Source: a virus
Taxonomy: Duplodnaviria; Heunggongvirae; Uroviricota; Caudoviricetes
DNA length: 64,000 nt
Virus record (IMG/VR): IMGVR_UViG_2718217789_000006
Direction: 5' to 3' (one strand)
Shown: positions 1,246 to 60,286 of the stretch, piece after piece
Position numbering within the stretch: the first letter of the stretch is position 1
Layout: each line of letters begins with the position of its first letter
Translations under genes and position numbers: made by a program
Notes under the pieces: model-generated
The model's database searches: none
Told to the model about the DNA's origin: nothing
What the model saw: only the letters and a program-made list of their open reading frames with translations

Positions 1246-1637
1246 AACATACTGATATCCGTGCGGCAGTGCTGGATGCACTGGAGCTGCATGAACACGG
1301 GGCGACGCTGTTTGATGGTCGCCCCGTTGTTTTTGACGAAGAGGATTTTCCGGCCGTCGCGGTTTATCTGACGGATGCAGAGTATACCGGTGAAGAGCTG
1401 GATGCAGATACCTGGCGGGCCACACTGCATATTGAGGTGTTTTTACCGGCACAGGTACCGGATTCGGAGCTTGATCAGTGGATGGAAAGCCGGATTTATC
1501 CGGCGGTGACTGCGATCCCGGCACTGGCAGACCTGATTACGACGATGGTTACGCAGGGCTATGAGTATCGTCGTGATGACGATATGGCGTTATGGAGTTC
1601 TGCGGATCTGACTTATTCCATTACATACGAGATGTGA
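1242..1637 (+). CDS. U: Minor tail protein U (tail terminator)
   Basis: 131 aa, ...[23 protein letters not shown]...[16 protein letters not shown]..., lambda gpU-like; 4-nt overlap with Z. Confidence 0.9.
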
Positions 1638-1644
1638 GGACGAT

Positions 1645-2397
1645 ATGGCAACACCAAATCCCCTTGAGCCGGTAAAAGGTGCCGGTACCACTCTGTGGGT
1701 TTACAACGGCAAGGGTGATGCTTATGCAAACCCGTTGTCAGACGATGACTGGCAGCGACTGGCTAAGGTGAAGGATCTGACGCCGGGCGAGATGACGGCA
1801 GAACCCTACGATGATAACTACCTGGATGATGAAGACGCGGACTGGACCGCGACCGGGCAGGGGCAGAAGTCTGCAGGAGATACCAGTTTTACGCTGGCCT
1901 GGAAACCGGGAGAAGAAGGTCAGAAAGGGCTTATAGGCTGGTTTGAAAGCGGGGATGTGCGGGCCTATAAAATCCGTTTCCCAAATGGCACGGTGGATGT
2001 GTTCCGTGGCTGGGTCAGCAGTATCGGTAAGGCCGTGACGGCGAAAGAAGTGATCACCCGCACGGTGAAAGTCACTAACGTGGGCAAACCTTCCGTGGCG
2101 GAAGAACGCAGCGAAATTACGCCGGCCACTGCAATTAAGGTGACACCGACATCCGGTACGGTGGCAAAAGGGAAAACAACCACCCTGACTGTTTCTTTTG
2201 AGCCGGAAAGTGCAACCGACAAGACGTTCAGAGCGGTTTCCGCCGATCCGTCGAAAGCCACCATTAGTGTGAAAGATATGACAATTACGGTAAACGGCGT
2301 GGCGACAGGTAAGGTGCAGATCCCTGTGGTGAGCGGAAATGGTCAGTTCGCCGCAGTGGCTGAAGTCACCGTTACTGAAGCGGGCGCTGCAGGGTAA
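1645..2397 (+). CDS. V: Major tail tube protein V
   Basis: 250 aa, ...[39 protein letters not shown]...[25 protein letters not shown]..., lambda gpV-like with C-terminal Ig-like region. Confidence 0.95.
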
Positions 2398-2410
2398 ACG
2401 GAGGTAATAC

Positions 2411-2833
2411 ATGTTTCTGAAAACAGAACAATTTGAATATAACGGTGTGTCCGTCACGCTTTCCGAATTGTCTGCGCTGCAGCGGTTTGATTATATAAAG
2501 TTTGTTTCAGACGCAGAACAACAGGAGACAACGAAGCATGATGTCGTGCACATTAACCAGCGATATCTGGAAACGGCATCCCTGCTTGTGGCGATGTCGC
2601 TATGGCATTCCCATTCCCTCAAAGGCACTCTGGCCTCTCCGGAGACAGAGATGCAGCAGATCCGCCGTGAAGTGATGCTGGGATGGCCTGCTGATGCACT
2701 GAATCAGGCAACGAACCGGGTGCTTTATCTTTCAGGTATGCTGGATAACCGGCACGATGCCGATCCTGAACAAACCGGTAAAGCAGAAGCGACTGAGTCG
2801 GTAACATCAAAAAAGCATTCGAAGGCGAGCTGA
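2411..2833 (+). CDS. G: Tail assembly chaperone G
   Basis: 140 aa, MFLKTEQFEYNGVSVTLSELSALQR..., lambda gpG-like; ends just after a slippery heptamer. Confidence 0.9.
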   Translation: MFLKTEQFEYNGVSVTLSELSALQRFDYIKFVSDAEQQETTKHDVVHINQRYLETASLLVAMSLWHSHSLKGTLASPETEMQQIRREVMLGWPADALNQATNRVLYLSGMLDNRHDADPEQTGKAEATESVTSKKHSKAS

Positions 2834-3273
2834 ACTTTGTCCTGAAACTGGCGCGAGAGATGGGGAGACCCGACTGGCGCGCCATGCTTGCCGGGATGAC
2901 ATCCACCGAATATGCCGACTGGCGACGTTTTTACTGCACGCATTATTTTCAGGATACCCAACTGGACGCTCATTTTTCCGGGCTGATGTACGCCGTACTC
3001 AGCCTGTTTTTTGGCGATCCGGATATGCATCCGGCGGATTTCAGTCTGCTTGCTCCAGCGTGTGAGGAAGAGCAGACGGAGATGCCGGACGAGGAAGAAA
3101 TGCTGATGCAGAAAGCGACAGGAGTTGCCGGAGGCGTCCGGTTCGGAGGGGACGGAGGGCGCGATATTTCACCTTCTGCGGATGTGGTGGATGTCAGCGA
3201 GGATGATGTTGCATTAATGATGGCTTCAGCGGGGATTTCCGGAGGTGTGAGATATGTCCCAGCCAGCGGGTGA
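2411..3273 (+). CDS. T: Tail assembly protein G-T, product of programmed -1 ribosomal frameshift
   Basis: T frame (ending 3273) is the -1 frame relative to G and is open upstream of its first ATG through the heptamer A_AAA_AAG at 2809..2815; -1 reading gives ...KKAFEGELNFVLKLAREMGRPDWRAMLAGMTSTEYADWRRFY... Confidence 0.75.
2809..2815 (+). promoter_or_regulatory. Slippery heptamer A_AAA_AAG for the G to G-T -1 frameshift
   Basis: In-frame X_XXY_YYZ motif in the G reading frame at the G/T overlap; lambda uses G_GGA_AAG at the same position. Confidence 0.7.
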
Positions 3274-5866
3274 TCTGGTTATTGATTTGAGTCTGGATGC
3301 GGCCCGGTTTGATGAACAGATGGCCCGGGTACGCCGTCATTTTTCCAGTCTGGAGGCGGATGCCAGAAAAACCGCCAGTACTGTTGAACAGGGGCTGAGC
3401 CGACAGGCGCTGGCGGCACAAAAAGCCGGGATATCAGTCGGACAGTATAAGGCTGCCATGCGCACACTGCCCGCACAGTTCACGGATATTGTCACTCAGC
3501 TTGCCGGTGGTCAGAATCCCTTCCTTATCATGCTGCAGCAGGGGGGGCAGATCAGCGATTCATTCGGTGGACCGCTCAGCCTGCTTACCCTGCTGAAGGA
3601 GGAACTTCTCGGGATCAGGGATGCCTCTGAATCATCAGAGGAGTCGCTGTCAGATACGGCAAATGCACTGGCTGAAAATGCCCGGAATGCCGGTGAGCTG
3701 GGACGATTTATGTCGGTGGCCCGTGTGGCGGCAGGTGGCGGGGTTGCCGTACTGGCCGCGCTTGCTGCCGCCGCCTGGCAGGCAGAGCAGGCTGACCGGG
3801 CCTTATTGCGTTCACTGATCCTGACCGGAGGGGCGGCTGCCACCACAACGGCAGAATTGTGGAAAATGGCCGGGGTGATCAGCGATGAAGCCGGTGGTGG
3901 TATCAGACAGGCGGCAGAAAATCTGGCCCGTCTGGCAGAAAGCGGGAAATATACCGCCGGGCAGCTACGGATCATGGGGGAAACCTCTCAGAGATGGCTG
4001 CAGACGGTGGGGGACGATGCCGGGAAGGTGGAAAAAGCCTTTGAAGGGATTGCAGCAGATCTGGTGAAGGCGCTGGCCTCCCTGAATCAGCAGTATAACT
4101 TCCTGAGCGTTTCCCAGTTACGCCATATTGATGAGCTTGAGCGCACGAAAGGTAAACAGGTTGCGGTGACGGAGGCGATGTCCCTGTTTGCGGATGTCAT
4201 GAATGCACGTCTGGAGCAACTTGATAAAGCGGCCACGCCGGTGGAAAAAATCTGGGACGATGTTAAAACCTGGACTTCTGACGCATGGGCATGGATAGGT
4301 GATCATACACTGGGGGCACTCAGTCTGATCACTGACGTGGTGGCCGGAACCGTTGAACAAGTGAAGCTGCTGCTTGTGCAGGGGGATCTGGCGCTGGCTG
4401 AATTTATTCAGTCAGCCTGGGAAACGACAAAGAATGTGCCCGGCGTTGGTGCGTTGTTTGGTGAACTGGCAGAAGAGAACCGCGTATTTATTGAGAAAAC
4501 AAAACGCGATGAACTGGCGCTGAGAAAATCCATTGCGGAACGGGATGCGCGTATACGCCAGGGGGAAATGGGGTACATCAACCGCTCGCGTGCAACAGGC
4601 GTCAGCAAAGGTCCGGGGCAGCAGGAAGCCGTCAGCCGTCTGGCTGAAGAGCTGACAGGTAAAAAGCATACATCACCGAAAACGCGCTCTGCCGGGGAGA
4701 GGGAAGAGGAGCAGGCAAGAGAGGCTCTGCTTGCCCTTGAAGCTGAGCTCAGGACGCTGGAAAAACACAGCGGTGCGAATGAGAAAATCAGCCGGCAGCG
4801 CCGTGATTTATGGAAGGCGGAAAGTCAGTATGCGGTCCTGAAAGAGGCTGCCACGAAACGACAGTTATCTGAGCAGGAAAAATCCCTGCTGGCGCATAAA
4901 GACGAGACGCTGGAGTACAAACGCCAGCTGGCTGAGCTGGGCGACAAGGTTGAATACCAGAAACGCCTGAATGAGCTGGCACAGCAGGCGGTGCGGTTTG
5001 AAGAGCAGCAGAGCGCGAAGCAGGCCGCCATCAGCGCAAAAGCCCGCGGTCTCACTGACCGTCAGGCGCAGCGGGAGTCTGAAGCGCAGCGTCTTCGGGA
5101 CGTGTACGGTGATAATCCGGCTGCGCTGGCGAAGGCCACATCGGCACTGAAGAACACCAGGTCTGCGGAGGAGCAGCTTCGTGGAAGCTGGATGGCCGGG
5201 CTGAAGTCCGGCTGGGGCGAGTGGGCGGAAAGTGCGACGGACAGTTTTTCGCAGGTTAAAAGTGCTGCCACGCAGACCTTTGACGGTATTGCACAGAATA
5301 TGGCGGCGATGCTGACCGGTGCAGAGGCAGACTGGCGGGGATTCACCCGTTCGGTGCTGTCCATGATGACAGAAATCCTGCTTAAACAGGCCATGGTGGG
5401 CATTGTCGGGCGTATCGGCAGCGCCATTGGCGGTGCTTTCGGTGGTGGTGCATCTGCTTCCTCGGGGACGGCCATTCAGGCTGCGGCGGCGAACTTCCAT
5501 TTCGCGACCGGAGGATTTACGGGGACGGGCGGCAAATATGAGCCTGCGGGGATAGTTCACCGCGGGGAGTTTGTTTTCACGAAAGAGGCAACCAGCCGGA
5601 TAGGTGTGGGGAATCTTTACCGTCTGATGCGCGGCTATGCGGAAGGTGGTTATGTGGGTGGTGCCGGAAGTCCGGCGCAGATGCGGCGGGCGGAAGGTAT
5701 TAATTTTAATCAGAACAATCACGTGGTGATTCAGAACGACGGCACCAACGGACAGGCGGGGCCGCAGCTGATGAAGGCGGTGTATGACATGGCCCGCAAG
5801 GGGGCGCAGGATGAGCTCCGGCTGCAGTTGCGTGATGGCGGTATGTTATCGGGGAGCGGGCGATGA
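3254..5866 (+). CDS. H: Tail tape measure protein H
   Basis: 870 aa; N- and C-terminal regions (…LSRQALAAQKAGISVGQYKAAMRTLPAQFTD…; …AMVGIVGRIGSAIGG…HFATGGFTGTGGKYEPAGIVHRGEFVFTKEATSRIG…) match lambda gpH as recalled; GGAGG RBS; overlaps end of T. Confidence 0.9.
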   Translation: MSQPAGDLVIDLSLDAARFDEQMARVRRHFSSLEADARKTASTVEQGLSRQALAAQKAGISVGQYKAAMRTLPAQFTDIVTQLAGGQNPFLIMLQQGGQISDSFGGPLSLLTLLKEELLGIRDASESSEESLSDTANALAENARNAGELGRFMSVARVAAGGGVAVLAALAAAAWQAEQADRALLRSLILTGGAAATTTAELWKMAGVISDEAGGGIRQAAENLARLAESGKYTAGQLRIMGETSQRWLQTVGDDAGKVEKAFEGIAADLVKALASLNQQYNFLSVSQLRHIDELERTKGKQVAVTEAMSLFADVMNARLEQLDKAATPVEKIWDDVKTWTSDAWAWIGDHTLGALSLITDVVAGTVEQVKLLLVQGDLALAEFIQSAWETTKNVPGVGALFGELAEENRVFIEKTKRDELALRKSIAERDARIRQGEMGYINRSRATGVSKGPGQQEAVSRLAEELTGKKHTSPKTRSAGEREEEQAREALLALEAELRTLEKHSGANEKISRQRRDLWKAESQYAVLKEAATKRQLSEQEKSLLAHKDETLEYKRQLAELGDKVEYQKRLNELAQQAVRFEEQQSAKQAAISAKARGLTDRQAQRESEAQRLRDVYGDNPAALAKATSALKNTRSAEEQLRGSWMAGLKSGWGEWAESATDSFSQVKSAATQTFDGIAQNMAAMLTGAEADWRGFTRSVLSMMTEILLKQAMVGIVGRIGSAIGGAFGGGASASSGTAIQAAAANFHFATGGFTGTGGKYEPAGIVHRGEFVFTKEATSRIGVGNLYRLMRGYAEGGYVGGAGSPAQMRRAEGINFNQNNHVVIQNDGTNGQAGPQLMKAVYDMARKGAQDELRLQLRDGGMLSGSGR

Positions 5867-6192
5867 AAACCTTTCGCTGGAAAGTGAAGCCGGATATGGA
5901 GGTGAACTCGCAGCCATCGGTGCGTGAAGTGCGTTTTGGTGACGGGTACTCACAGCGTATGGCGGCAGGGCTGAATGCTGACCTGAAAACATACCGTGTG
6001 ACGCTTTCCGTGACCCGGGAGGAGGCCCGGCATCTGGAAGCGTTCCTGGCAGAGCACGGAGGCTGGAAGGCATTTTTGTGGAAGCCACCCTATGCATACC
6101 GGCAGATAAAGGTGACCTGTGCCGGGTGGTCTGCGCGGGTCGGGATGTTGCGCGTTGAGTTCAGCGCGGAGTTTAAGCAGGTGGTGAACTGA
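5863..6192 (+). CDS. M: Minor tail protein M
   Basis: 109 aa, MKTFRWKVKP...YRVTLSV...KVTCAGWSARVGMLRVEFSAEFKQVVN, lambda gpM-like. Confidence 0.9.
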   Translation: MKTFRWKVKPDMEVNSQPSVREVRFGDGYSQRMAAGLNADLKTYRVTLSVTREEARHLEAFLAEHGGWKAFLWKPPYAYRQIKVTCAGWSARVGMLRVEFSAEFKQVVN

Positions 6193-6890
6193 TGCAGGAT
6201 ATTCACGGGGAAAGCCTGATCGAGTCGGTTAAATCAGAGCAGTCACCGCGGGTGGTGCTCTGGGAAATCGACCTGACGGTGCAGGGTGGTGAGCGGTATT
6301 TTTTCTGCAATGAGCTGAATGAAAAAGGGGAGGCGGTTACCTGGCAGGGGCGGGAATATCAGGCATACCCGATTGACGGCAGCGGTTTTGAGATGAACGG
6401 GAAGGGCAGCAGTGCCCGCCCGTCGCTGACGGTGTCGAATCTGTTCGGTCTGGTCACCGGAATGGCGGAGGACCTGCAGAGCCTGGTGGGGGCCACGGTG
6501 GTCCGCCGCCGGGTGTATGCCCGTTTTCTGGATGCGGTGAATTTTGTGGCGGGCAATCCGGAAGCGGACCCGGAGCAGGAGCTGAGCGACCGCTGGGTGG
6601 TGGAGCAGATGTCAGAGCTGACGGCCATGACAGCCTCGTTTGTGCTGGCAACACCGACGGAGACGGACGGAGCGCTGTTTCCCGGTCGCATTATGCTGGC
6701 GAATACCTGTATGTGGGATTACCGGGGAGATGAATGCGGGTATAACGGTCCTGCGGTGGCGGATGAGTTCGACAACCCCACCACGGATATCCGTAAGGAC
6801 AGATGCAGCAAGTGCATGCGCGGGTGTGAGATGCGCGGCATGGTGGCTAATTTTGGCGGTTTCCTTTCCATCAATAAACTTTCGCAGTAA
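6192..6890 (+). CDS. L: Minor tail protein L
   Basis: 232 aa, ...VVLWEIDLT...GERYFFCNE...FPGRIMLANTCMWDYRGDECGY...FGGFLSINKLSQ, lambda gpL-like. Confidence 0.9.
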   Translation: MQDIHGESLIESVKSEQSPRVVLWEIDLTVQGGERYFFCNELNEKGEAVTWQGREYQAYPIDGSGFEMNGKGSSARPSLTVSNLFGLVTGMAEDLQSLVGATVVRRRVYARFLDAVNFVAGNPEADPEQELSDRWVVEQMSELTAMTASFVLATPTETDGALFPGRIMLANTCMWDYRGDECGYNGPAVADEFDNPTTDIRKDRCSKCMRGCEMRGMVANFGGFLSINKLSQ

Positions 6891-6900
6891 ATCCTGTTTT

Positions 6901-7644
6901 ATGACACAGACTGAATCAGCGATTCTGGTGCATGCCCGGCGGTGTGCGCCTGCGGAGTCGTGCGGCTTCGTGATAGGCACCCCGGAGGGCGAACGGTACC
7001 AGCCCTGCGTGAATATCTCCGCAGAGCCGGAGGCGTATTTTCGTATTGCGCCGGAAGACTGGCTGCAGGCAGAGATGCAGGGGGAGATTGTGGCGCTGGT
7101 TCACAGCCACCCTGGTGGTCTGCCCTGGCTGAGCGAGGCCGACCGGCGGCTGCAGATAAAGAGTGCCCTGCCCTGGTGGCTGGTCTGCCGGGGGGAAATT
7201 CATAAATTCCGCTGTGTGCCGCACCTGACCGGGCGTCGTTTTGAGCACGGGGTGACGGACTGTTACACCCTGTTCCGGGATGCATACCATCTGGCGGGGA
7301 TAACGCTGCCGGATTTTGAGCGTGAGGATGACTGGTGGCGCAACGGTCAGAACCTTTACCTGGACAATATGGCGGCGACTGGTTTTTACCGGGTGCCCCT
7401 GTCCTCTGCACAGGCGGGCGATATCCTGCTGTGCTGCTTTGGCGCATCGGTGGCCAATCATGCCGCCATATACTGCGGCAACGGTGAACTGCTTCACCAT
7501 CTGCCTGAACAACTGAGTAAACGGGAGAGGTATTCTGAAAAATGGCAACGACGAACGCATTCTGTCTGGCGTCACCGCCACTGGCACGCATCTGCCTTCA
7601 CGGGGATTTGCAACGATTTGGCCGCCGCCTCAGCCTGTACGTGA
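6901..7644 (+). CDS. K: Tail assembly protein K (JAB/MPN plus NlpC/P60-like domains)
   Basis: Starts at ATG 6901 (MTQTESAILVHARRCAPAESCGFV...HSHPGG...); the ORF-track start at 6640 is an upstream in-frame extension overlapping L and is rejected. Confidence 0.9.
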   Translation: MTQTESAILVHARRCAPAESCGFVIGTPEGERYQPCVNISAEPEAYFRIAPEDWLQAEMQGEIVALVHSHPGGLPWLSEADRRLQIKSALPWWLVCRGEIHKFRCVPHLTGRRFEHGVTDCYTLFRDAYHLAGITLPDFEREDDWWRNGQNLYLDNMAATGFYRVPLSSAQAGDILLCCFGASVANHAAIYCGNGELLHHLPEQLSKRERYSEKWQRRTHSVWRHRHWHASAFTGICNDLAAASACT

Positions 7645-8219
7645 ACACGGCAGCGGAAGCCATCCGTGCCCTGTCGCTGCAGATGCCGGGATTCCGCCGT
7701 CAGATGAACGAAGGCTGGTACCAGATACGTATTCGCGGTGAGGACACGGCACCGGAGGCGGTGTACGCCCGTCTTCACGAACCTCTGGGTGAGGGGGCGG
7801 TCATCCATATTGTGCCGCGACTGGCCGGAGCCGGAAAGGGCGGACTGCAGATTGTGCTGGGGGCAGCAGCCATCGTGGGCTCTTTCTTCACCGCCGGCGC
7901 AACGATGGCGTTGTGGGGCGCAGCCCTGAGTGCCGGAGGGCTGACTGCCACCACGATGCTGTTCTCACTGGGTGCCAGCATGATACTGGGCGGTGTGGCC
8001 CAGATGCTGGCACCGAAGGCAAAAACACCGGAGTACAGGGCGACGGATAACGGTAAACAGAACACGTATTTTTCGTCACTGGATAACATGATTGCCCAGG
8101 GGAACCCGATGCCGGTGCCTTATGGTGAAATGCTGGTTGGTTCACGACGGATATCCCAGGACATCAGCACCCGTGATGAGGGCGGAGACGGGAAAGTGGT
8201 GGTTATCGGGCGGGGATGA
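7542..8219 (+). CDS. I: Tail assembly protein I
   Basis: 225 aa, ...ICLHGDLQRFGRR...AVIHIVPRLAGAGKGG...GKQNTYFSSLDNMIAQGNPMPVPYGEM..., lambda gpI-like; overlaps 3' end of K. Confidence 0.85.
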   Translation: MATTNAFCLASPPLARICLHGDLQRFGRRLSLYVNTAAEAIRALSLQMPGFRRQMNEGWYQIRIRGEDTAPEAVYARLHEPLGEGAVIHIVPRLAGAGKGGLQIVLGAAAIVGSFFTAGATMALWGAALSAGGLTATTMLFSLGASMILGGVAQMLAPKAKTPEYRATDNGKQNTYFSSLDNMIAQGNPMPVPYGEMLVGSRRISQDISTRDEGGDGKVVVIGRG

Positions 8220-8264
8220 AAATAAAAAAATCCCGCAGAGTTAGCGGAGCTGCGGGAGAGAACG

Positions 8265-8384
8265 ATGAAGATTAACGTTATGGAGTTATTTTTCAGGCAT
8301 CAAAAAAGTAATGCAGCGTCATTATTGCGGCTACAGGCAATTGCCGGAAATGTGAAGAGTTTCAGAAATTTTATTCCGTCATGA
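8265..8384 (+). CDS. Hypothetical 39-aa protein in an AT-rich insert between I and J
   Basis: ATG with GGGAGAG upstream; MKINVMELFFRHQKSNAASLLRLQAIAGNVKSFRNFIPS; bracketed by two GC-rich hairpins; no homology recognised. Confidence 0.25.
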   Translation: MKINVMELFFRHQKSNAASLLRLQAIAGNVKSFRNFIPS

Positions 8385-8459
8385 CACAGGCACCCTCCGG
8401 GGTGCCTGTTGTTTTCTGGCATAAACAGATTCAGACATCAGACAGGAGAGGGGGACAGA

Positions 8460-22814: not shown

Positions 22815-23000
22815 GCTGACCTCATTTCCCCTTAACGCCGGGGTAGCGGAACAAAAACCTGCTGCATAGTTATTAAAGTTGAACCCTGCCGTCATGTTCT
22901 TACGCCTCGGGCTGGCTACTTAACCCCTGACCACTGCCTGGTAACTCGAAGTATTGCCCTGCATTCTGTGGGGCGGGGTGGGTTGGTATGAAAAGAAGGA

Positions 23001-23037
23001 TACCCATAGGTATTTAAAAAGTAAATACCCATGGGTA
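23001..23037. promoter_or_regulatory. Pair of 12-bp palindromic operator-like sites between repressor gene and dicB-type operon
   Basis: TACCCATAGGTA (23001..23012) and TACCCATGGGTA (23026..23037), perfect palindromes 25 bp centre-to-centre, upstream of the ydfA-like gene. Confidence 0.45.
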
Positions 23038-23079
23038 AATTTTTGCGGTGTCTTAACTGGTGACTAGTTGTTTGGTGAG

Positions 23080-23499
23080 CTATGATGCGTTTTGTGCTTT
23101 CTTTTTACGGATTTCTTCGTAGATCATATTGTAATACTGTTTTTTCTCTTCAAGAGTTTTTAATAATTTATCCGCTTCACTTTCTGGCAGTTCGTCTAAG
23201 AGATCTAAAAAAATACGTTGTCGTGGCGTTAGAACCCTTGTTTCATAACTGGAGGCTGTGTTCGTTGATGATGAAACGATACCATCCATCCATCCCCGGG
23301 GTAACCCAAAGGACTCTTCGATAATCTCCACCATATCATCAGCGATCCGTTTTTTTCCCTTTTTCCCCTCTGGGTACAACATTCTTGATACATAAGAAGG
23401 CTCGCGCCCGATCTTTCTGGCCACGTTAACCGCTTTACCATCGCATTTCTCATCACGAATTTTGATGAGTTGCTGTCGTCTAAATTCATATTTGTCCAT
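23080..23499 (-). CDS. Prophage repressor (DicA/RacR/CI-type HTH protein)
   Basis: 139 aa; HTH-like ...AVNVARKIGREPSYVSRML...; C-terminal ...LDELPESEADKLL... resembles DicA ...ALPESEQD...; divergent from a Cro-like gene. Confidence 0.7.
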   Translation of the reverse strand: MDKYEFRRQQLIKIRDEKCDGKAVNVARKIGREPSYVSRMLYPEGKKGKKRIADDMVEIIEESFGLPRGWMDGIVSSSTNTASSYETRVLTPRQRIFLDLLDELPESEADKLLKTLEEKKQYYNMIYEEIRKKKAQNAS

Positions 23500-23580
23500 A
23501 GGTAAATAATAGATGCGATTACCGCAAGGTAAACAACCTGTGGGTATTGGCTTTTGTTTACCTGTGGGTATTCTTTGCTG
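23500..23580. promoter_or_regulatory. Divergent promoter/operator region between repressor and Cro-like gene
   Basis: CCATAGGTA half-site and two direct copies of CCTGTGGGTATT (reverse complement TACCCACAGG, a one-base variant of the palindrome core at 23001..23037). Confidence 0.4.
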
Positions 23581-23599
23581 TGTTTACTAAGGAGTAGCT

Positions 23600-23881
23600 A
23601 TGGAAGAATTAAGAATATTTCTCAATTCTCTTTCGTCAGATGAACAGCGTATGTTTGCATGCGAGTGTGGTACCAGCATCGGTTATCTAAGAAAGGCATT
23701 GAGTAAAGGTCAAGTGTTAGGGGCATCGTTATGTGTCCTTATTGAGCGAGCCAGTAATGGTGAAGTTACACGTCAGCAACTAAGGCCTTTTGATTGGATG
23801 AATATTTGGCCCGAGCTGGAAGATACCAAAACGTTAACACAACCACTTTCTAGGAGCTTGATTCATGAAAATCAAGCATGA
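23600..23881 (+). CDS. Cro/YdaS-like HTH regulator
   Basis: 93 aa, ...MFACECGTSIGYLRKALSKGQ...; divergent from the repressor, AGGAG RBS. Confidence 0.6.
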   Translation: MEELRIFLNSLSSDEQRMFACECGTSIGYLRKALSKGQVLGASLCVLIERASNGEVTRQQLRPFDWMNIWPELEDTKTLTQPLSRSLIHENQA

Positions 23882-24290
23882 ACACATCCGCATGGCGATG
23901 AATGCCTGGGCGCGTCCTGATGGCGAAAAAGTTCCAGCAGCTGGAATAACCCAGGCTTATTTTGAGTTGGGTATGACGTTCCCAGAACTGTATGACGACA
24001 GCCATCCGGAAGCCCTGGCTCGCAATACCCAGAAAATTTTCCGCTGGGTAGAGAAAGACACCCCTGATGCTGTTGAAAAAATGCAGGCTCTGTTACCGGC
24101 GATCGAAAAGGCGATGCCGCCTTTGCTGGTGGCCCGTATGCGCAGCCACAGTTCTGAATATTACCGTGAGATCGTCGAACGGAGGGATCGGCTGGTGAAG
24201 GATGTCGATGATTTTGTTGCGTCAGCGGTTGTTTTGTATGACCAGATGAATCGCGGCGGCCCGGCAGGGAATGCTGTGGTGATGCACTAA
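23865..24290 (+). CDS. YdaT-like regulatory protein
   Basis: 141 aa following the Cro-like gene with short overlap, as ydaS-ydaT in Rac-type immunity regions; assignment by position and general resemblance. Confidence 0.45.
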   Translation: MKIKHEHIRMAMNAWARPDGEKVPAAGITQAYFELGMTFPELYDDSHPEALARNTQKIFRWVEKDTPDAVEKMQALLPAIEKAMPPLLVARMRSHSSEYYREIVERRDRLVKDVDDFVASAVVLYDQMNRGGPAGNAVVMH

Positions 24291-24312
24291 AAGCACGGTG
24301 TTCGGGGGTTTT

Positions 24313-25275
24313 ATGAGCAGCAAGCTTCATGGTCTTGTCTGGGAAGGGTGCGCCTTCACCGGCATGATCTTATCCAGGGTGGCGGTTATGGCCCGTCTTG
24401 CAGACTACAGCAATGACGAGGGCGTGTCATGGCCTGCCATTGAAACTATCCGGCGTCAGATCGGTGCAAGAAGTGAATCCACAGTGAAATCGGCTATTGC
24501 AGAACTGGCGAAAGAGGGCTGGCTGACGAAGGAAGAGCGTAAGGTCGGTGGGCGTAATGTAAGCAATATCTATCGGCTTAATGTGGAAAAACTCGAAGCA
24601 GCTGCGGCGGCGGCGCGTGAGTCATATAAACCGAAAAGAAAAATTAGCCCGGCAAAAAATGACCCGTTAACAGTTGACCCGTCAAATATTGACCCCTCAA
24701 CGGTTGACCCGTCAAATTTTGATGGATCAACTGTTGATAACAAACTGCCGATTAGGGGGGCGATGATTGACCCCGATCCGTCAGTATTAAAACCTGATCC
24801 GTCAGATAAAAGATCTTCTTGTCCGGACGCTTCGCAACCGGACCCGCAGACGGCTGAACAGGATTTTTTAACCCGACACCCTGACGCGGTTGTGTTCAGT
24901 GCGAAAAAACGCCAGTGGGGAAGTCAGGAAGATTTGGTGTGCGCACAGTGGATCTGGGGACGAATCGTGAGTCTTTACGAGCAGGCGGCCAGCTATGATG
25001 GCGAGATCACTAGACCGAAAGAACCCAACTGGACAGCATGGGCCAATGACGTTCGCACAATGCGGATGCTGGATGGCAGAACTCACAGACAAATTTGTGA
25101 AATGTTTGGGCGTCTCCAGCGGGATTCGTTCTGGGTAAAAAACATCATGAGTCCGGCAAAACTCCGGGAAAAATGGGATGAACTGGTTATCCGCCTGGGG
25201 CGTTCGCCTGCGCAGCGTTGCGTGAATCACATTTCTGAACCGGACACTGAAATACCGCCGGGATTCAGGGGGTGA
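24313..25275 (+). CDS. Replication initiator (lambda O-like / replisome organiser)
   Basis: N-terminal winged-helix-like region; internal repeated DP(L/S)TVDPSN peptide coded by DNA direct repeats (iteron-like); upstream of the DnaC-like loader; ATG 24313 with GGGGG RBS preferred over GTG 24298. Confidence 0.7.
   Translation: MSSKLHGLVWEGCAFTGMILSRVAVMARLADYSNDEGVSWPAIETIRRQIGARSESTVKSAIAELAKEGWLTKEERKVGGRNVSNIYRLNVEKLEAAAAAARESYKPKRKISPAKNDPLTVDPSNIDPSTVDPSNFDGSTVDNKLPIRGAMIDPDPSVLKPDPSDKRSSCPDASQPDPQTAEQDFLTRHPDAVVFSAKKRQWGSQEDLVCAQWIWGRIVSLYEQAASYDGEITRPKEPNWTAWANDVRTMRMLDGRTHRQICEMFGRLQRDSFWVKNIMSPAKLREKWDELVIRLGRSPAQRCVNHISEPDTEIPPGFRG
24661..24740. repeat. Iteron-like direct repeats inside the replication initiator gene (candidate ori)
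   Basis: GACCCGTTAACAGTTGACCCGTCAAATATTGACCCCTCAACGGTTGACCCGTCAAATTTTGAT...: four or more copies of a TTGACCCGTCAA-type unit. Confidence 0.45.
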
Positions 25276-25281
25276 CGTGTC

Positions 25282-26028
25282 ATGAAAAACATTGCGGCAG
25301 TTGGGGTTCTTGAACGTATTCGCAGACTTGCACCACAGGGGCCGGTTCCACCGTACCGGACGGTGGAGGAGTGGCGGGAATGGCAACTTGCTGAAGGACG
25401 AAAACGCAGCGAGGAGATTAACCGCCAGAATCGCCAGTTGCGGGTGGAAAAAATCCTGAATCGTTCGGGCATCCAGCCTCTGCACAGCAAATGCTCGTTT
25501 GCAAATTATCAGGTGCAGAACGACGGGCAAAAATACGCGCTGAGCCAGGCCAAATCCATAGCTGACGAACTGATGACCGGGTGCACGAATTTTGTGTTCA
25601 GCGGTAAAACCGGCACCGGGAAAAATCACCTTGCAGCGGCGATGGGCAACCGGCTGATGGTGAAGGGGCGCAGCGTGATTATCGTCACCGTGTCTGACGT
25701 CATGAGCGTGTTGCATGACAGCTACGACAACGGCAAATCCGGGGAAAAATTTTTACAGGAGCTTTGCGGGGTTGATTTGCTGGTCCTGGATGAAATAGGC
25801 GTTCAGCGGGAGACGAAAAACGAGCAGGTGGTATTGCACCAGATAATTGATCGCCGGACAGCATCACTGTGCAGTGTCGGGATGTTAACAAACCTGAATC
25901 ATGCCGCAATGAGTACGCTTCTTGGTGAGAGGATTATGGACCGCATGACCATGAACGGTGGTCGATGGGTGACGTTTAACTGGGATAGCTGGCGTCCAAA
26001 TGTCAGCAATATGAGGGTTGTGAAGTAA
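25282..26028 (+). CDS. DnaC-like helicase loader (IstB-like AAA+ ATPase)
   Basis: 248 aa; Walker A GKTGTGKNHLAAA, Walker B DLLVLDEIG. Confidence 0.85.
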   Translation: MKNIAAVGVLERIRRLAPQGPVPPYRTVEEWREWQLAEGRKRSEEINRQNRQLRVEKILNRSGIQPLHSKCSFANYQVQNDGQKYALSQAKSIADELMTGCTNFVFSGKTGTGKNHLAAAMGNRLMVKGRSVIIVTVSDVMSVLHDSYDNGKSGEKFLQELCGVDLLVLDEIGVQRETKNEQVVLHQIIDRRTASLCSVGMLTNLNHAAMSTLLGERIMDRMTMNGGRWVTFNWDSWRPNVSNMRVVK

Positions 26029-26049
26029 TTTTGTCCGGAGGAAATTTTA

Positions 26050-26820
26050 ATGGAAACCGTATCTGACGCACTGAAAGCACTGAAAAAAGCCTCTTCACAT
26101 GTGGTGGCAGCTCGCCTTGGAATCAGTCGTGAAGAGGCTGTCAACGAGCTGTGGGAACTCAAAAGAAAAGGCGTCGTTGATAAAACTGGTCACACCTGGT
26201 TTCTGGCTGGCGAAGGTGAATCCCGGGTAACCGAAGAGCGGCCAGTAAAATCTGAAGCACAGGATATGCTGACCGGGGAGGTCGAACAAAAAGTTACCGC
26301 AGACATGATGATTGAGTTTATCGGTCAGGATGGGGCTAAAACGTGTGAGGAACTGGCGGGTAAGTTCGGTGTCAGTACTCGCAAGGTTGCTTCCACGCTG
26401 GCGGTGGTAACCGCAACGGGGCGGCTGGCACGCGTTAATCAGAACGGTAAATTTCGTTACTGCATGCCGGGCGATAATTTACCAGCAGAGCCGAAAGCCG
26501 CGCTGGTAACGGAAAGTGATGGTAAGGCCTTTCCTCAGCCAGCAGGTGCTGCGTTACCAGTCCGGGAAGCCGCAACACAGGAAGAAATTAAAACAGAAAC
26601 TGTGGCGGACATTGTGCAGCCGTTGCCATCGTTTACCGAAACGCAAGCAGATGAGCTGATTTTTCCGTCCCTTCGCAGGGCAAACCTGGCGCTGCGCAGG
26701 GCGAAAAGTGATGTTCAGAAGTGGGAGCGAGTCTGCGCCGCGCTGCGGGAGCTGAACAAGCACCGGGATATTGTTCGACAGATTACTGATTCTTCCCGCC
26801 GTGTTGTATCGGAAAAGTGA
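26050..26820 (+). CDS. Hypothetical protein with two winged-helix-like segments
   Basis: 256 aa; GGAGG RBS; no family recognised. Confidence 0.5.
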   Translation: METVSDALKALKKASSHVVAARLGISREEAVNELWELKRKGVVDKTGHTWFLAGEGESRVTEERPVKSEAQDMLTGEVEQKVTADMMIEFIGQDGAKTCEELAGKFGVSTRKVASTLAVVTATGRLARVNQNGKFRYCMPGDNLPAEPKAALVTESDGKAFPQPAGAALPVREAATQEEIKTETVADIVQPLPSFTETQADELIFPSLRRANLALRRAKSDVQKWERVCAALRELNKHRDIVRQITDSSRRVVSEK

Positions 26821-27414: not shown

Positions 27415-28101
27415 ATGACCCCAATAAAAATATTTATGACTATTGCTGATTTCAAACGGCCTAAATTGGAGCTCCCAAACGGGGCAAACAAACTACTACT
27501 GCACTCTTGCTGTGCTCCATGTTCCGGTGAAGTGATGGAGGCGCTTCAGGCCTCGGGAATCGACTACACCATCTTTTTCTACAACCCGAACATTCATCCT
27601 CAGAAAGAGTATTTAATTCGTAAGGATGAAAATATTCGCTTTGCTGAACAACACGGCGTGCCGTTTATCGATGCTGATTACGACACCGACAACTGGTTTG
27701 AACGTGCCAAAGGAATGGAATGGGAGCCTGAGAGGGGGATCCGTTGTACCATGTGTTTTGACATGCGTTTTGAGCGGACAGCGTTGTACGCTGCTGAAAA
27801 TGGTTTCAGTGTGATCAGCAGTTCACTGGGCATTTCACGCTGGAAAAATATGCAGCAGGTTAACGAGTGTGGGCGGCGAGCTGTTGCGCATTATCCGGGT
27901 ATGGTGTACTGGGATTATAACTGGCGCAAGCAGGGCGGCTCGTCCCGTATGATTGAAATCAGCAAGCGCGAAAAATTCTATCAGCAGGAATATTGTGGCT
28001 GTGTGTATTCTCTGCGCGATACCAATCTACACCGCAAATCTCAGGGACGCCCTCTTATCAAAATTGGCCAACTCCACTACGGAAAAGAAGAGAAGGAGTG
28101 A
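27415..28101 (+). CDS. QueH-like protein (DUF208, epoxyqueuosine reductase family)
   Basis: 228 aa; [11 protein letters not shown]...FFYNPNIHP...QEYCGCVYS motifs characteristic of QueH/DUF208 as recalled. Confidence 0.55.
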
Positions 28102-47547: not shown

Positions 47548-47946
47548 ATGAAACACCGTGAAATACGGGCGGCAGTTCTGTCTGCCCTGAAAGAAAATAT
47601 TTCTGAGAGGGTGAGCTGGTTTGACGGTCGCCCGGTTTTTATTGATGAACAGGAACTGCCTGCTGTTGCTGTTTACCTGACAGATGCGTCTGCTGCTGAC
47701 GAGTTCGTTGATGAGGGAACCTGGGAGGCGACACTGCATATTGAGGTTTTTCTCAGGGCAAAAGAACCGGACTCGGCACTGGATATGTGGATGGAAGAAA
47801 AAATTCTTCCTGCGCTGGAGGCAGTTCCCGGGCTCAGTGCATTACTGCTGAAGATGAATCTTCAGGGGTATGACTACCGCCGGGATGATGAGTTTATGAT
47901 GTGGGGATCGGCAGATCTCCTGTGGAAAATTACCTACGAGATGTGA
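47548..47946 (+). CDS. U: Minor tail protein U
   Basis: 132 aa, ...[17 protein letters not shown]...HIEVFL...; differs from the prophage A copy except at the 3' end. Confidence 0.85.
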
Positions 47947-47953
47947 GGACGAT

Positions 47954-48706
47954 ATGGCAACACCAAATCCCCTTGAGCCGGTAAAAGGTGCCGGTACCAC
48001 TCTGTGGGTTTACAACGGCAAGGGTGATGCTTATGCAAACCCGTTGTCAGACGATGACTGGCAGCGACTGGCTAAGGTGAAGGATCTGACGCCGGGCGAG
48101 ATGACGGCAGAACCCTACGATGATAACTACCTGGATGATGAAGACGCGGACTGGACCGCGACCGGGCAGGGGCAGAAGTCTGCAGGAGATACCAGTTTTA
48201 CGCTGGCCTGGAAACCGGGAGAAGAAGGTCAGAAAGGGCTTATAGGCTGGTTTGAAAGCGGGGATGTGCGGGCCTATAAAATCCGTTTCCCAAATGGCAC
48301 GGTGGATGTGTTCCGTGGCTGGGTCAGCAGTATCGGTAAGGCCGTGACGGCGAAAGAAGTGATCACCCGCACGGTGAAAGTCACTAACGTGGGCAAACCT
48401 TCCGTGGCGGAAGAACGCAGCGAAATTACGCCGGCCACTGCAATTAAGGTGACACCGACATCCGGTACGGTGGCAAAAGGGAAAACAACCACCCTGACGG
48501 TTTCTTTTGAGCCGGAAAGTGCAACCGACAAGACGTTCAGAGCGGTTTCCGCCGATCCGTCGAAAGCCACCATTAGTGTGAAAGATATGACAATTACGGT
48601 AAACGGCGTGGCGACAGGTAAGGTGCAGATCCCTGTGGTGAGCGGAAATGGTCAGTTCGCCGCAGTGGCTGAAGTCACCGTTACTGAAGCGGGCGCTGCA
48701 GGGTAA
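47954..48706 (+). CDS. V: Major tail tube protein V (identical to the prophage A copy)
   Basis: 250 aa, protein identical to 1645..2397. Confidence 0.95.
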
Positions 48707-48719
48707 ACGGAGGTAATAC

Positions 48720-49142: not shown

Positions 49143-49477
49143 ACTTTGTCCTGAAACTGGCGCGTGAGATGGGGAGAGCCGACTGGCGCGCCATGCTTGC
49201 CGGGATGACATCCACCGAATATGCCGACTGGCGACGTTTTTACTGCACGCATTATTTTCAGGATACCCAGCTGGATATGCATTTTTCCGGGCTGATGTAC
49301 GCCGTACTCAGCCTGTTTTTTTGCGATCCGGATATGCATCCGGCGGATTTCAGCCTGTTCGCTCCGGAGGCAGAGGAAGGACAGGCGGAGACGCCGGACG
49401 AAAATGATGTACTGATGCAGAAGGCGGCGGGCCTCGCCGGTGGAGTCCGTTTCGGGGAGGAGGGAAGGAGGTTGTGA
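48720..49477 (+). CDS. T: Tail assembly protein G-T via -1 frameshift at A_AAA_AAG (49118..49124)
   Basis: Same slippery heptamer and frame relationship as copy A; the T C-terminus diverges and is shorter than in copy A. Confidence 0.7.
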
Positions 49478-49520
49478 CAGTTATTGATGGTATCAGAGGA
49501 CATTTCAGGAGGTGACCACG

Positions 49521-60285: not shown

Positions 60286-60286
60286 C

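What the first reader, a model, noticed from the sequence alone, without database searches (positions are those of the whole stretch)
24661..24740. Iteron-like direct repeats inside the replication initiator gene
Four or more copies of a TTGACCCGTCAA-type unit lie within the O-like gene and encode a repeated DP(L/S)TVDPSN peptide, analogous to the lambda ori iterons inside gene O. This is the likely replication origin.
Basis: partly seen in the sequence, partly recalled or inferred. Interest (0 to 1): 0.4.

Follow-up and report, generated by a model that had tools for sequence, protein, structure and literature searches.

The report
Prophage replication origin inside initiator gene
A run of five to six 15-base repeats in the middle of a prophage replication-initiator gene is conserved as DNA, not as protein, and is most likely the lambda-style origin where that initiator binds; it is an expected kind of feature, though this particular origin family seems undescribed.

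Summary
Window 24659-24733 holds five in-phase 15-nt units, plus a decayed sixth. Each unit is a 12-bp dyad, TTGAC-CC-GTCAA, followed by a 3-bp spacer. The array lies in the inter-domain linker of a 320-aa initiator gene (24313-25275) in an E. coli O157-type lambdoid prophage. The C-terminal half of that protein is homologous to lambda O (35% identity, E 5e-26). The N-terminal half is an unrelated HTH_36 winged helix. A DnaC-like loader gene follows.

The constraint acts on the DNA, not the peptide. All 80 distinct full-length family genes (77 surveyed loci, Enterobacterales, plus the window and two phage genes) carry a 15-nt-period array at the same place, with a TGA-N4-TCA core. Synonymous codon choice is almost fixed across residues ~100-170, while the central codon varies freely (P/A/G/T/R...). 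Units occur in both orientations (DPS versus DGS/EGS). The core motif is 57-fold enriched in the linker. The iteron subtype tracks the N-domain subclade. An allele with a different N-domain carries different repeats.

Just downstream (24769-24822) lie the least stable 40-mer of the gene and the tightest GATC triplet in the 64 kb. This block aligns with lambda's AT-rich ori segment.

Verdict: a lambda-type iteron origin, a new member of a known kind. Function has not been tested experimentally.

The parts
24313..25275 (+). Replication initiator gene (320 aa from the ATG at 24313): N-terminal winged helix, repeat-bearing linker, lambda-O-like C-domain
   Evidence: ORF. RefSeq annotates the same CDS in strain 9000. 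PHROG 391 'replication initiation O-like' at 2.2e-115 over residues 1-320.
24313..24627 (+). N-terminal DNA-binding domain (residues 1-105). It is a winged helix-turn-helix of Pfam HTH_36 type (hit at residues 25-71). Predicted recognition helix about residues 55-67, wing 71-89.
   Evidence: Pfam HTH_36 27.9 bits against a cut-off of 25. AlphaFold2 model with mean pLDDT 82 and H-H-H-H-beta-hairpin-H topology. Foldseek top matches are MarR/ArsR/PadR-type wHTH proteins. No similarity to the lambda O N-domain.
24610..24828 (.). Zone of strong synonymous-site (DNA-level) constraint across the family; proposed extent of the origin
   Evidence: Codon alignment of 67 non-redundant family genes. Excess codon homozygosity is 0.42-0.49 here, against 0.07 in the N-domain and 0.13 in the C-domain (Mann-Whitney p = 9e-19). 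Amino-acid conservation is not higher here.
24659..24733 (.). Iteron array: five 15-nt units, each a 12-bp dyad plus a 3-bp spacer. Dyads at 24659-24670 (ATGACCCGTTAA), 24674-24685 (TTGACCCGTCAA), 24689-24700 (TTGACCCCTCAA), 24704-24715 (TTGACCCGTCAA) and 24719-24730 (TTGATGGATCAA, centre in the opposite orientation).
   Evidence: Synonymous resampling 0 of 20000. The same array is present in all 80 distinct family genes.
24734..24745 (.). Sixth, decayed unit TTGATAACAAAC, still in 15-nt phase
   Evidence: It keeps the left half-site only.
24774..24783 (.). Iteron-like site CGATCCGTCA with an embedded GATC
   Evidence: Direct repeat D5; GATC at 24775. In the family this Asp codon is GAT, while the array uses GAC.
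24795..24804 (.). Iteron-like site TGATCCGTCA (exact TGA-N4-TCA) with an embedded GATC
   Evidence: Codons GAT-CCA/G-TCA-GAT-AAA are nearly invariant across the family.
24769..24822 (.). Proposed unwinding region: a relatively A+T-rich block with three GATC sites (24775, 24796, 24812)
   Evidence: The least stable 40-mer within the gene is 24781-24820 (68% A+T, 97.5th percentile of the window). The tightest GATC triplet in the 64 kb spans 37 nt here. BLASTP aligns residues 153-168 with the lambda O residues encoded by lambda's AT-rich ori segment. In the family, the 130 nt after the array carry GATC at 18.9/kb, against 5.2/kb over whole genes.
24769..25212 (+). C-terminal domain homologous to the lambda O C-terminal domain
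   Evidence: BLASTP residues 153-300 against lambda O 145-277: 35% identity, E 5e-26.
25216..25272 (+). C-terminal tail (RCVNHISEPDTEIPPGFRG), shared with Rac YdaU and resembling the C-terminus of DnaT. Possible contact for the DnaC-like loader.
   Evidence: 13 of 19 residues identical to the YdaU C-terminus. Sub-threshold NCBIfam match to DnaT positions 159-179 of 179. The functional role is inference.
25282..26028 (+). DnaC-like helicase loader gene, 80% identical to Rac YdaV
   Evidence: Pfam IstB_IS21 at 7.5e-19. PHROG 50 'DnaC-like helicase loader'. NCBIfam PRK12377 at 505 bits, above its cut-off, and DnaC at 3.5e-89. YdaV comparison.

Best explanation
The array is the initiator-binding (iteron) part of this lambdoid prophage's replication origin, embedded in the coding sequence of the initiator's own inter-domain linker, as in lambda ori/gene O.

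Proposed mechanism:
1. The N-terminal winged-helix domain of the initiator binds the 12-bp dyads (TTGAC-CC-GTCAA, family core TGA-N4-TCA). The dyads abut at a fixed 15-bp phase, and two further GATC-containing copies lie downstream.
2. The resulting nucleoprotein complex destabilises the adjacent, relatively A+T-rich, GATC-dense block (about 24769-24822).
3. The lambda-O-like C-terminal domain and its DnaT/YdaU-like tail bring in host DnaB through the DnaC-like loader encoded immediately downstream.

Shown here by computation: the repeat anatomy, selection at the DNA level, conservation of the array across the family, co-inheritance of array type with N-domain type, homology of the C-domain to lambda O, and positional correspondence with lambda's iterons and AT-rich segment.

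Inferred: binding itself, stoichiometry, the place of melting, loader recruitment, and any role of Dam methylation or SeqA at the GATC sites.
For: - Anatomy: five in-phase dyad units. Four of the five TTGA-N4-TCAA dyads in the 64 kb are these units.
- DNA-level constraint in the window: unit-to-unit nucleotide identity exceeds every one of 20000 synonymous re-encodings.
- Array conserved in the family: all 80 distinct full-length family genes examined carry a 15-nt-period array at gene nt ~300-450. These are 77 of the 80 loci fetched from Enterobacterales (N-domain 53-77% identical), plus the window gene and two phage genes.
- Information content is high at unit positions 2-4 and 9-11, which include two third-codon positions. 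It is low in the centre, where the encoded residue varies among A, P, G, T, L, R, V, H.
- Ser is encoded by TCA in 52% of linker Ser codons against 19% elsewhere (Fisher p = 6e-75).
- The Asp codon in D-x-S is GAC 200: GAT 45 inside arrays, but GAT 123: GAC 29 in the 120 nt downstream.
- Excess synonymous-codon homozygosity is 0.42-0.49 over residues ~100-170, against 0.07 and 0.13 in the two folded domains (p = 9e-19). Amino-acid conservation is not higher there.
- Units occur in both orientations, CCCG versus CGGG centres, which give DPS versus DGS/EGS.
- TGA-N4-TCA occurs at 19.3/kb in the linker against 0.34/kb in the rest of 66 loci, and the commonest spacing is 15 (128 cases).
- Cognate pairing: the iteron subtype (TTGAC..TCAAATA, CTGAC..TCAAAAT, CTGAACGTTCAGAA) tracks the HTH subclade. 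The mEp460-type allele shares only the C-terminal half (86% nt identity from about 24808) and has a different N-domain and different repeats at the same place.
- Initiator context: the C-domain is homologous to lambda O. Lambda's annotated iterons lie at the same relative position, and its AT-rich segment aligns with 24769-24816. A DnaC-like loader gene is adjacent.
- The least stable 40-mer of the gene and the tightest GATC triplet of the window lie just downstream of the array.
- Literature: lambda, P22 and L each carry different iterons inside their initiator genes (PMC8022706). The lambda and Stx-phage origin consists of iterons plus an AT-rich tract in the middle of gene O (PMC7466680).
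Against: - No experiment or replication read-out is available, so binding, melting and origin firing are inferred.
- The downstream block is only moderately A+T-rich (68%). It is no more so than three other 40-mers in the gene.
- The loci are phylogenetically related, so the counts over 67-80 genes are not independent events, and the tracking of iteron subtype with HTH subclade is confounded by common descent.
- The half-site spacing (7-8 bp) and the 15-bp phase are unusual for a winged-helix dimer, and no binding geometry could be tested.
- In some family members the gene downstream is not a helicase loader. It is YfdN-like in phage 720R4 and a Dam methylase in a Klebsiella phage. The proposed loader-recruitment step is therefore not general to the family.
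- The array also has strong hairpin potential, so a structural role is not excluded.
Confidence: 0.75

Rival explanations
1. Initiator-binding sites, but not the origin. The array would serve autoregulation, copy control or incompatibility (titration or handcuffing), or act as a transcription or translation roadblock inside the initiator's own gene, while unwinding starts elsewhere.
For: All the evidence for DNA-level selection and for cognate pairing with the N-domain fits this reading equally well. Plasmid iterons are known to combine initiation and control functions (established knowledge; PMC3401445 abstract). The nearby A+T-rich block is modest.
Against: The position matches the lambda iterons, with the aligned AT-rich segment next to them. 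No other repeat cluster of this motif exists in the 64 kb; there is one isolated dyad at 28608. In lambdoid phages with other initiator types, the intragenic repeats are taken to be the origin (PMC8022706).
Confidence: 0.1
2. A purely protein-level feature: a flexible, low-complexity D/P/S/N-rich linker that grew by in-frame slippage, with no function as DNA.
For: The array is in frame and its period is a multiple of three. It lies between two folded domains. Model confidence drops after residue ~105. Copy number varies from 3 to 10 among relatives.
Against: Synonymous sites are more constrained than amino acids. The central residue of each unit varies widely while third-codon positions are fixed. 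The same DNA site occurs in both orientations, which changes P to G. Each unit is a dyad, which a peptide does not need.
Confidence: 0.03
3. A nucleic-acid structure. The array of dyads would fold as a long hairpin in the mRNA (stability, translational pausing, RNase III site), or as a cruciform or single-strand hairpin in DNA (for example a primosome-assembly or single-strand initiation signal).
For: Window 24650-24745 folds with z = -6.5 as RNA and z = -4.6 as DNA, with no shuffle folding as well. Arrays of six relatives give z from -2.1 to -7.7. Inverted repeat I1 has 33-nt arms that are 79% complementary.
Against: Hairpin potential follows automatically from tandem dyads. The predicted folds differ from locus to locus. 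Within units, positions 5/8 and 6/7 are complementary no more often than their base frequencies predict. No Rfam family matches. The strongest constraint extends into the non-palindromic GATC block.
Confidence: 0.07
4. A conserved recombination 'linker' between exchangeable modules. The DNA of the inter-domain segment would be kept uniform by frequent homologous exchange among lambdoid phages, or selected for that exchange, and not by initiator binding.
For: Homology to other alleles begins just after the array, at query nt 478 or 511, which is window 24775 or 24808. The same N-domain and array are joined to C-termini with different tails. The post-array block is nearly invariant, even against a 90.6% identical allele.
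Against: This does not explain the internal 15-nt phasing, the dyad symmetry, the variable centres or the 57-fold local motif enrichment. It also does not explain the consistent GAC/GAT codon switch. Many non-synonymous differences exist inside the constrained zone, so the zone is not simply young DNA.
Confidence: 0.05

Closest known systems
Bacteriophage lambda ori (four iterons plus an AT-rich tract inside gene O) with the O and P proteins
   Same: The origin is embedded in the initiator's own coding sequence, in the linker between the DNA-binding N-domain and the C-domain. It consists of tandem dyad-symmetric repeats followed by a less stable A+T-richer stretch. The C-domain is truly homologous (35% identity, E 5e-26), and lambda's AT-rich segment aligns with window 24769-24816. 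The gene lies in the rightward early operon after the cro-like and cII-like genes.
   Different: The N-domain is an HTH_36 winged helix, not Phage_rep_O. The iterons are 12-bp dyads at a rigid 15-bp phase (five or six copies, plus two GATC-bearing copies), whereas lambda has 18-bp sites at 20-24 bp spacing. The partner is a DnaC-like AAA+ loader, not lambda P. The presumed unwinding block is only 68% A+T but dense in GATC.
Salmonella phages P22 and L (gene 18 initiators with their own intragenic repeats)
   Same: These show the same principle of initiator-specific repeats inside the initiator gene, with N-domain and repeats exchanged as a unit. P22 has four ~20-bp repeats and L has six 11-bp repeats, TGTCCAACGGA (PMC8022706).
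   Different: The repeat sequences and periods differ, and the downstream partner in those phages is a DnaB-type helicase (gp12) (PMC8022706). Whether P22/L gp18 belong to the HTH_36 family was not tested here.
Stx-phage origins (933W, P27 of the Wegrzyn collection): lambda-type O with six iterons
   Same: They are lambdoid prophages of the same host lineage (E. coli O157), and their iteron copy number varies within the origin (PMC7466680).
   Different: Those origins are close relatives of lambda ori in sequence. The present one has an unrelated DNA-binding domain and unrelated iterons. The Stx2e phage phiP27 (NC_003356) carries the present family instead, followed by DnaC-like and DnaB-like genes.
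Rac prophage replication module (oriJ; ydaU-ydaV)
   Same: The early-region layout is the same: repressor, YdaS-like, YdaT-like, initiator, DnaC-like loader. The loader is 80% identical to YdaV, and the last 19 residues of the initiator resemble the YdaU C-terminus. Rac is reported to have an active origin, oriJ (PMC3945230).
   Different: YdaU has a DUF1376 N-domain, shows no similarity to this initiator apart from the tail, and contains no comparable repeat array.
Iteron plasmids and P1 oriR / oriC-type GATC-rich unwinding regions
   Same: Tandem initiator-binding repeats sit next to a region rich in Dam (GATC) sites. In oriC and P1 oriR, clustered GATC sites lie in or beside the unwinding region (established knowledge, not tested here).
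   Different: The initiator is not a Rep_3/RepA-type protein, since no such Pfam hit was found. The origin lies inside a coding region. No involvement of DnaA is indicated, because DnaA-box-like sites are at chance level.

Membership tests
Lambda-type intragenic origin (ori within the initiator gene) | Tandem initiator-binding repeats located inside the initiator ORF, between the N- and C-terminal domains | tested here: met
   The array lies at gene nt 346-420 (residues 116-140), between the HTH_36 domain and the lambda-O-like C-domain. Lambda's iterons lie at residues ~117-145.
Lambda-type intragenic origin (ori within the initiator gene) | Repeats are selected as DNA, not as peptide | tested here: met
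   Synonymous resampling 0 of 20000. TCA codon bias p = 6e-75. GAC/GAT switch. Synonymous-constraint scan p = 9e-19.
Lambda-type intragenic origin (ori within the initiator gene) | A+T-rich, easily melted tract adjacent to the repeats | tested here: inconclusive
   The least stable 40-mer of the gene is 24781-24820 (68% A+T, 97.5th percentile), and it aligns with lambda's AT-rich segment. The bias is modest, and similar 40-mers exist at 24555, 24624 and 24715.
Lambda-type intragenic origin (ori within the initiator gene) | The initiator binds the repeats, and the segment supports initiator-dependent replication | not testable with these tools
   This needs EMSA or footprinting and a plasmid replication assay. 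The only natural hint is a 16-kb circular record made of the immunity-to-lysis segment, which is of low assembly quality.
Lambda O protein family | N-terminal Phage_rep_O (PF04492) DNA-binding domain | tested here: not met
   No PF04492 hit at E <= 0.01, whereas lambda O scores 123 bits. hhalign of the N-domain profile against lambda O residues 1-128 gives probability 0.07%.
Lambda O protein family | C-terminal domain of O (the P-interacting half in lambda) | tested here: met
   BLASTP 35% identity over 148 columns, E 5e-26. PHROG 391/277/9773 'replication initiation O-like'.
HTH_36 (PF13730) winged-helix initiator N-domains | Pfam model match above the gathering score, and a winged-helix fold | tested here: met
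   27.9 bits against a cut-off of 25; the phiP27 homologue scores 45 bits. The AF2 model has wHTH topology and pLDDT 82. Foldseek gives wHTH regulators.
Rep_3/RepA-type iteron-plasmid initiators | Sequence or fold membership of the plasmid Rep wHTH family | tested here: not met
   No such Pfam hit. The PDB sequence search gives only weak MarR-type matches. No Rep protein appears among the top 50 Foldseek hits.
DnaC/IstB-type helicase loader (partner gene) | AAA+ IstB/DnaC domain, with the gene adjacent to the initiator | tested here: met
   PF01695 at 7.5e-19. NCBIfam PRK12377 at 505 bits, above its cut-off of 389; DnaC model at 299 bits, below its equivalog cut-off of 357.
Rac oriJ / YdaU-type initiator | DUF1376 N-domain initiator | tested here: not met
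   YdaU is DUF1376, and only the last 19 residues are similar.

The most novel reading that the evidence does not exclude
The origin may carry a built-in methylation switch. The two downstream iteron-like sites and the presumed unwinding block contain GATC sites at synonymous positions that are fixed across the family (GAT-CCN, where the array itself uses GAC-CCN). Initiator binding or strand opening could therefore depend on Dam methylation state or SeqA sequestration, which would couple prophage origin firing to passage of the host replication fork. The abutting, alternately oriented half-sites (7-8 bp apart, 15-bp phase, either orientation) may also assemble a winged-helix filament whose geometry differs from the lambda O-some.
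Probability: 0.15. Interest if true: 0.5.

Novelty: new member of a known kind. Interest (0 to 1): 0.3.

Why it matters
This initiator allele is very common. 1285 of the 20,395 records (5,426 complete E. coli genomes) carry it at >=99% identity. Relatives occur in isolated phages such as SfII, SfIV, phiP27, phiNP and YeP1-3. Public annotation nonetheless calls the gene only 'helix-turn-helix domain-containing protein', and no origin is marked.

Defining the iteron (TGA-N4-TCA at a 15-bp phase) and the ~220-bp constrained zone has three uses:
- It gives a concrete, testable origin for a large class of O157-type and Shigella prophages.
- It provides a marker for replication-module typing and incompatibility among co-resident lambdoid prophages.
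- It supplies a clean example of DNA-level selection overriding codon choice inside a coding linker.

Conceptually it extends the lambda/P22/L paradigm rather than changing it.

Tried and rejected
- Rac oriJ as the identity of the element: rejected. Rac YdaU is a DUF1376 protein without this array; only the loader and a 19-aa tail are shared.
- DnaA boxes near the array: two 1-mismatch sites (24582, 24732), but the window-wide count is below the chance expectation (38 against 45).
- Known RNA family: only a sub-threshold miRNA-hairpin match.
- Conserved overlapping ORF as the cause of synonymous constraint: no alternative frame is open across the array plus 90 nt in most loci (best 29 of 67). 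The 57-aa minus-strand ORF at 24570-24743 mirrors the dyad repeats and is not conserved.
- Base-pair covariation inside units (positions 5/8 and 6/7): none beyond base frequencies.
- Promoter and terminator scan of 23000-26200: nothing inside the gene.
- GC skew: no switch at the site.
- A viral-contig scan with the N-domain returned only loci 100% identical to the query N-domain and added no diversity. The N-domain protein search returned mostly fragments. Diversity came from genome contigs.
- PDB sequence search and Foldseek: only generic winged-helix regulators, no solved initiator relative.
- Literature searches for oriJ with iterons, for SfII/SfIV origins, and for the motif strings themselves found nothing on this origin family. 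The library covers open-access papers only.
- The 16-kb circular 'plasmid' pZ1322PEC0161-2 as natural proof of autonomous replication: not relied on, because the record has homopolymer frameshifts in ydaT and in the initiator, and it may be an assembly product.
Full report
**1. Observation**

The window between 24659 and 24745 reads as six consecutive 15-nt units:
- ATGACCCGTTAA-CAG
- TTGACCCGTCAA-ATA
- TTGACCCCTCAA-CGG
- TTGACCCGTCAA-ATT
- TTGATGGATCAA-CTG
- TTGATAACAAAC (decayed)

Tandem Repeats Finder reports period 15 (about 5 copies) and a better-scoring period-30 superunit with 84% matches. The repeat finder finds the same family, and also a 33-nt imperfect inverted repeat that results from tandem dyads. 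Each unit is a 12-bp dyad (TTGAC-nn-GTCAA) followed by a 3-bp spacer.

All seven matches to TTGACCCGTCAA at up to 2 mismatches in the 64 kb lie in this array. Four of the five full TTGA-N4-TCAA dyads in the window are consecutive units. The translated peptide is NDPLTVDPSNIDPSTVDPSNFDGSTVDN.

**2. Context**

The window is identical to a chromosomal prophage of E. coli strain 9000. The initiator allele is at >=99% identity in 1285 records of the complete-genome collection. The gene order is:
- repressor (minus strand);
- YdaS/Cro-like;
- YdaT/CII-like;
- initiator (24313-25275);
- DnaC-like loader (25282-26028);
- DUF1627, DUF977 and QueH.

The initiator matches PHROG 391 'replication initiation O-like' (2e-115) and Pfam HTH_36 above its cut-off.

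Its residues 153-300 are homologous to the C-terminal domain of lambda O (35% identity, E 5e-26). Its N-domain is unrelated to lambda O's Phage_rep_O domain. An AlphaFold2 model of residues 1-116 (pLDDT 82) is a winged helix-turn-helix, and its nearest solved folds are MarR/ArsR/PadR-type regulators.

The layout resembles Rac, and the loader is 80% identical to YdaV. The Rac initiator YdaU, however, is a DUF1376 protein that shares only the last 19 residues and has no such array.

**3. Is the repeat a DNA element or a peptide repeat?**

Five independent lines point to DNA.

(a) Within the window alone, re-encoding the same 25 residues with resampled synonymous codons never reproduces the observed unit-to-unit nucleotide identity. 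The observed value is 0.68; resampling gives 0.517 +/- 0.031, with 0 of 20000 trials reaching it.

(b) I fetched 80 loci encoding relatives of the N-domain (53-77% identity) from one-genome-per-species bacterial assemblies, mostly Enterobacterales.
- Seventy-seven of them held a full-length gene. Together with the window gene and two phage genes, this gave 80 distinct genes.
- All 80 have a 15-nt-period array at gene nt ~300-450, with 3-10 units.
- The family consensus is CTGAC-sCg-TCAAAAT. Information is concentrated in TGA (positions 2-4) and TCA (positions 9-11). This includes two third-codon positions, T2 and A11.
- The centre is variable, and the encoded middle residue ranges over A, P, G, T, L, R, V, H.

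(c) Codon choice is position-specific.
- Linker Ser codons are TCA in 52% of cases, against 19% elsewhere in the same genes (p = 6e-75).
- In D-x-S tripeptides, Asp is GAC 200: GAT 45 inside arrays, but GAT 123: GAC 29 in the next 120 nt.

(d) A codon alignment of 67 non-redundant genes was scanned for synonymous constraint.
- Excess synonymous-codon homozygosity is 0.07 in the N-domain and 0.13 in the C-domain.
- It is 0.42-0.49 over window residues ~100-170, which is nt ~24610-24822 (Mann-Whitney p = 9e-19).
- Amino-acid conservation is not higher there (0.67, against 0.81 in the N-domain).

(e) The same site occurs in either orientation, for example centres CCCG/CGGG and the window's fifth unit TGGA. 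This converts DPS into DGS or EGS, a non-conservative change in the protein but the identical site in duplex DNA.

The bare core TGA-N4-TCA is 57-fold enriched in the linker relative to the rest of the 66 loci (19.3 against 0.34 per kb). The commonest spacing is exactly 15.

**4. Cognate pairing with the N-domain**

- The iteron subtype follows the HTH subclade. TTGAC..TCAAATA goes with the 'GA(K/R)S..' helix-turn-helix of the window clade. CTGAC..TCAAAAT goes with the 'GA-GxST' clade (SfII/SfIV/720R4-like). CTGAACGTTCAGAA occurs in one divergent lineage. This agreement is expected for a protein and its site, but it is confounded by common descent.
- The mEp460-type allele gives stronger evidence. 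It shares only the C-terminal half with the window gene (86% nt identity starting near 24808). It has an unrelated N-domain and different repeats just upstream of the junction.
- Homology to the 720R4 and Klebsiella alleles at the nucleotide level likewise starts at window ~24775.

The DNA-binding domain and its repeats therefore travel as one module, and the lambda-O-like C-domain travels as another. This is the pattern described for lambda, P22 and L (PMC8022706).

**5. The segment downstream of the array**

- The least stable 40-mer inside the gene is 24781-24820 (68% A+T, 97.5th percentile of all 40-mers in the window).
- The tightest triplet of GATC sites in the whole 64 kb is 24775/24796/24812.
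- Two of these GATC sites sit inside iteron-like sites: CGATCCGTCA at 24774 and TGATCCGTCA at 24795.
- Across the family this block (GAT-CCG-TCA-GTA ... GAT-CCA-TCA-GAT-AAA ... TGT) has almost invariant codons. GATC density there is 18.9/kb, against 5.2/kb over whole genes.
- In the BLASTP alignment with lambda O, window residues 153-168 (nt 24769-24816) align with the lambda residues encoded by lambda's AT-rich ori segment. That segment directly follows lambda iteron 4.

I take this block as the probable unwinding region. The A+T bias is modest, and three other 40-mers in the gene are nearly as unstable, so this step is inferred.

**6. Mechanism proposed**

1. Initiator N-domains occupy the phased dyads.
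2. The complex stresses and opens the adjacent GATC-rich block.
3. The lambda-O-like C-domain, with a tail that resembles the C-termini of YdaU and DnaT, recruits DnaB through the adjacent DnaC-like loader.

Transcription of the early rightward operon runs through the site, as it does in lambda. Steps 1-3 are inferences from anatomy and homology.

**7. Rival explanations**

- A peptide-only linker is contradicted by section 3.
- A control-only binding array (autoregulation, titration) cannot be excluded, and it may coexist with origin function.
- Hairpin or cruciform potential is strong: z = -6.5 as RNA and -4.6 as DNA in the window, and -2.1 to -7.7 in six relatives. But this follows from tandem dyads, the folds differ among loci, central positions show no complementarity beyond base composition, and Rfam has no match.
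- A conserved overlapping ORF is excluded for most loci.
- A recombination-linker role for the post-array block is possible, but it does not explain the phased dyads.

**8. Comparison with the known, and novelty**

The arrangement works like lambda ori, and the C-domain is a true O homologue. The DNA-binding domain, iteron sequence, iteron length and spacing, and loader type all differ. It is therefore not a member of the lambda O/ori sequence family in its origin-recognition half.

Literature searches found the general principle (PMC8022706, PMC7466680) but no description of this iteron family or of an origin in SfII, SfIV, phiP27 or O157 prophages of this type. The library is open-access only.

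I rate it a new member of a known kind. It is useful for annotation and testable, but not surprising to a phage-replication specialist.

**9. Limits**

Nothing here measures binding or replication. The comparative counts come from related sequences. A 16-kb circular record made only of the immunity-to-lysis segment with this initiator is suggestive of a lambda-dv-like replicon, but its quality is poor.

Noticed in passing
window 1620-16728 and 47929-62630: Long, near-identical direct repeats about 46.3 kb apart (for example 13560-13859 = 59951-60250 at 100%, and 10698-10997 = 56999-57298 at 99%). The window seems to span the late regions of two adjacent, closely related lambdoid prophages, which is a substrate for recombination between prophages.
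   Followed up: partly
window 25216-25272 (initiator residues 302-320): The C-terminal tail ..PDTEIPPGFRG is shared with Rac YdaU (13 of 19 identical). It also gives a sub-threshold match to the very C-terminus of the primosomal protein DnaT. Many family members end in ..GFRG, while others carry different tails. It may be a short docking motif for DnaC-type loaders.
   Followed up: partly
L170 (NZ_CP148542.1, whole 15,977-bp circular record): A record deposited as an E. coli plasmid consists only of a prophage segment from the repressor through cro, ydaT, this initiator (99% identical), the loader, the nin region and Q, to the lysis genes. No other replicon is typed. This resembles a lambda-dv plasmid. 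ydaT and the initiator carry homopolymer frameshifts, so it may be a low-quality or artefactual assembly.
   Followed up: partly
window 28608-28619: An isolated perfect dyad, TTGAGCGTTCAA, is the only TTGA-N4-TCAA site in the 64 kb outside the array. It lies about 3.9 kb downstream in the nin-like region and could be chance.
   Followed up: no
window 24570-24743, minus strand: A 57-aa ORF on the opposite strand encodes a mirror-image peptide (..STVDPSKFDGSTVEGSIFDGSTV..) because the units are dyads. It is not conserved as an open frame beyond the array in relatives and is probably not a gene.
   Followed up: yes
L002 1398-1500 (phage mEp460_ev081) and L168: The alternative initiator allele has the same lambda-O-like C-half and an unrelated N-domain with no Pfam hit. 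It carries its own repeats at the equivalent place: three ACAGAGAATACA-type 12-mers, and three GGTCAAAA-containing repeats about 23 nt apart. This is presumably a second undescribed iteron type.
   Followed up: partly
L004 2025-2834; L003 2522-3175: In Klebsiella phage 1 LV-2017 a Dam-type adenine methylase gene directly follows the initiator. In E. coli phage 720R4 an N6-adenine methyltransferase lies two genes downstream. This is of interest given the conserved GATC cluster in the origin block.
   Followed up: no
L001 9139-11999, which maps to about window 27436-30296 (locus coordinate + 18297); QueH ORF at window 27415-28101: The nin-like region of this prophage carries QueH (epoxyqueuosine reductase) and a complete type II restriction-modification pair, a DNA cytosine methyltransferase plus an NgoMIV-family endonuclease.
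   Followed up: no
L166 (phage phiP27, NC_003356, 10334-13537): The Stx2e phage phiP27 carries this HTH_36 initiator family, followed by both a DnaC-like loader and a DnaB-like helicase. It is therefore not the lambda-like 'P27' origin studied in PMC7466680; the two names should not be confused.
   Followed up: partly
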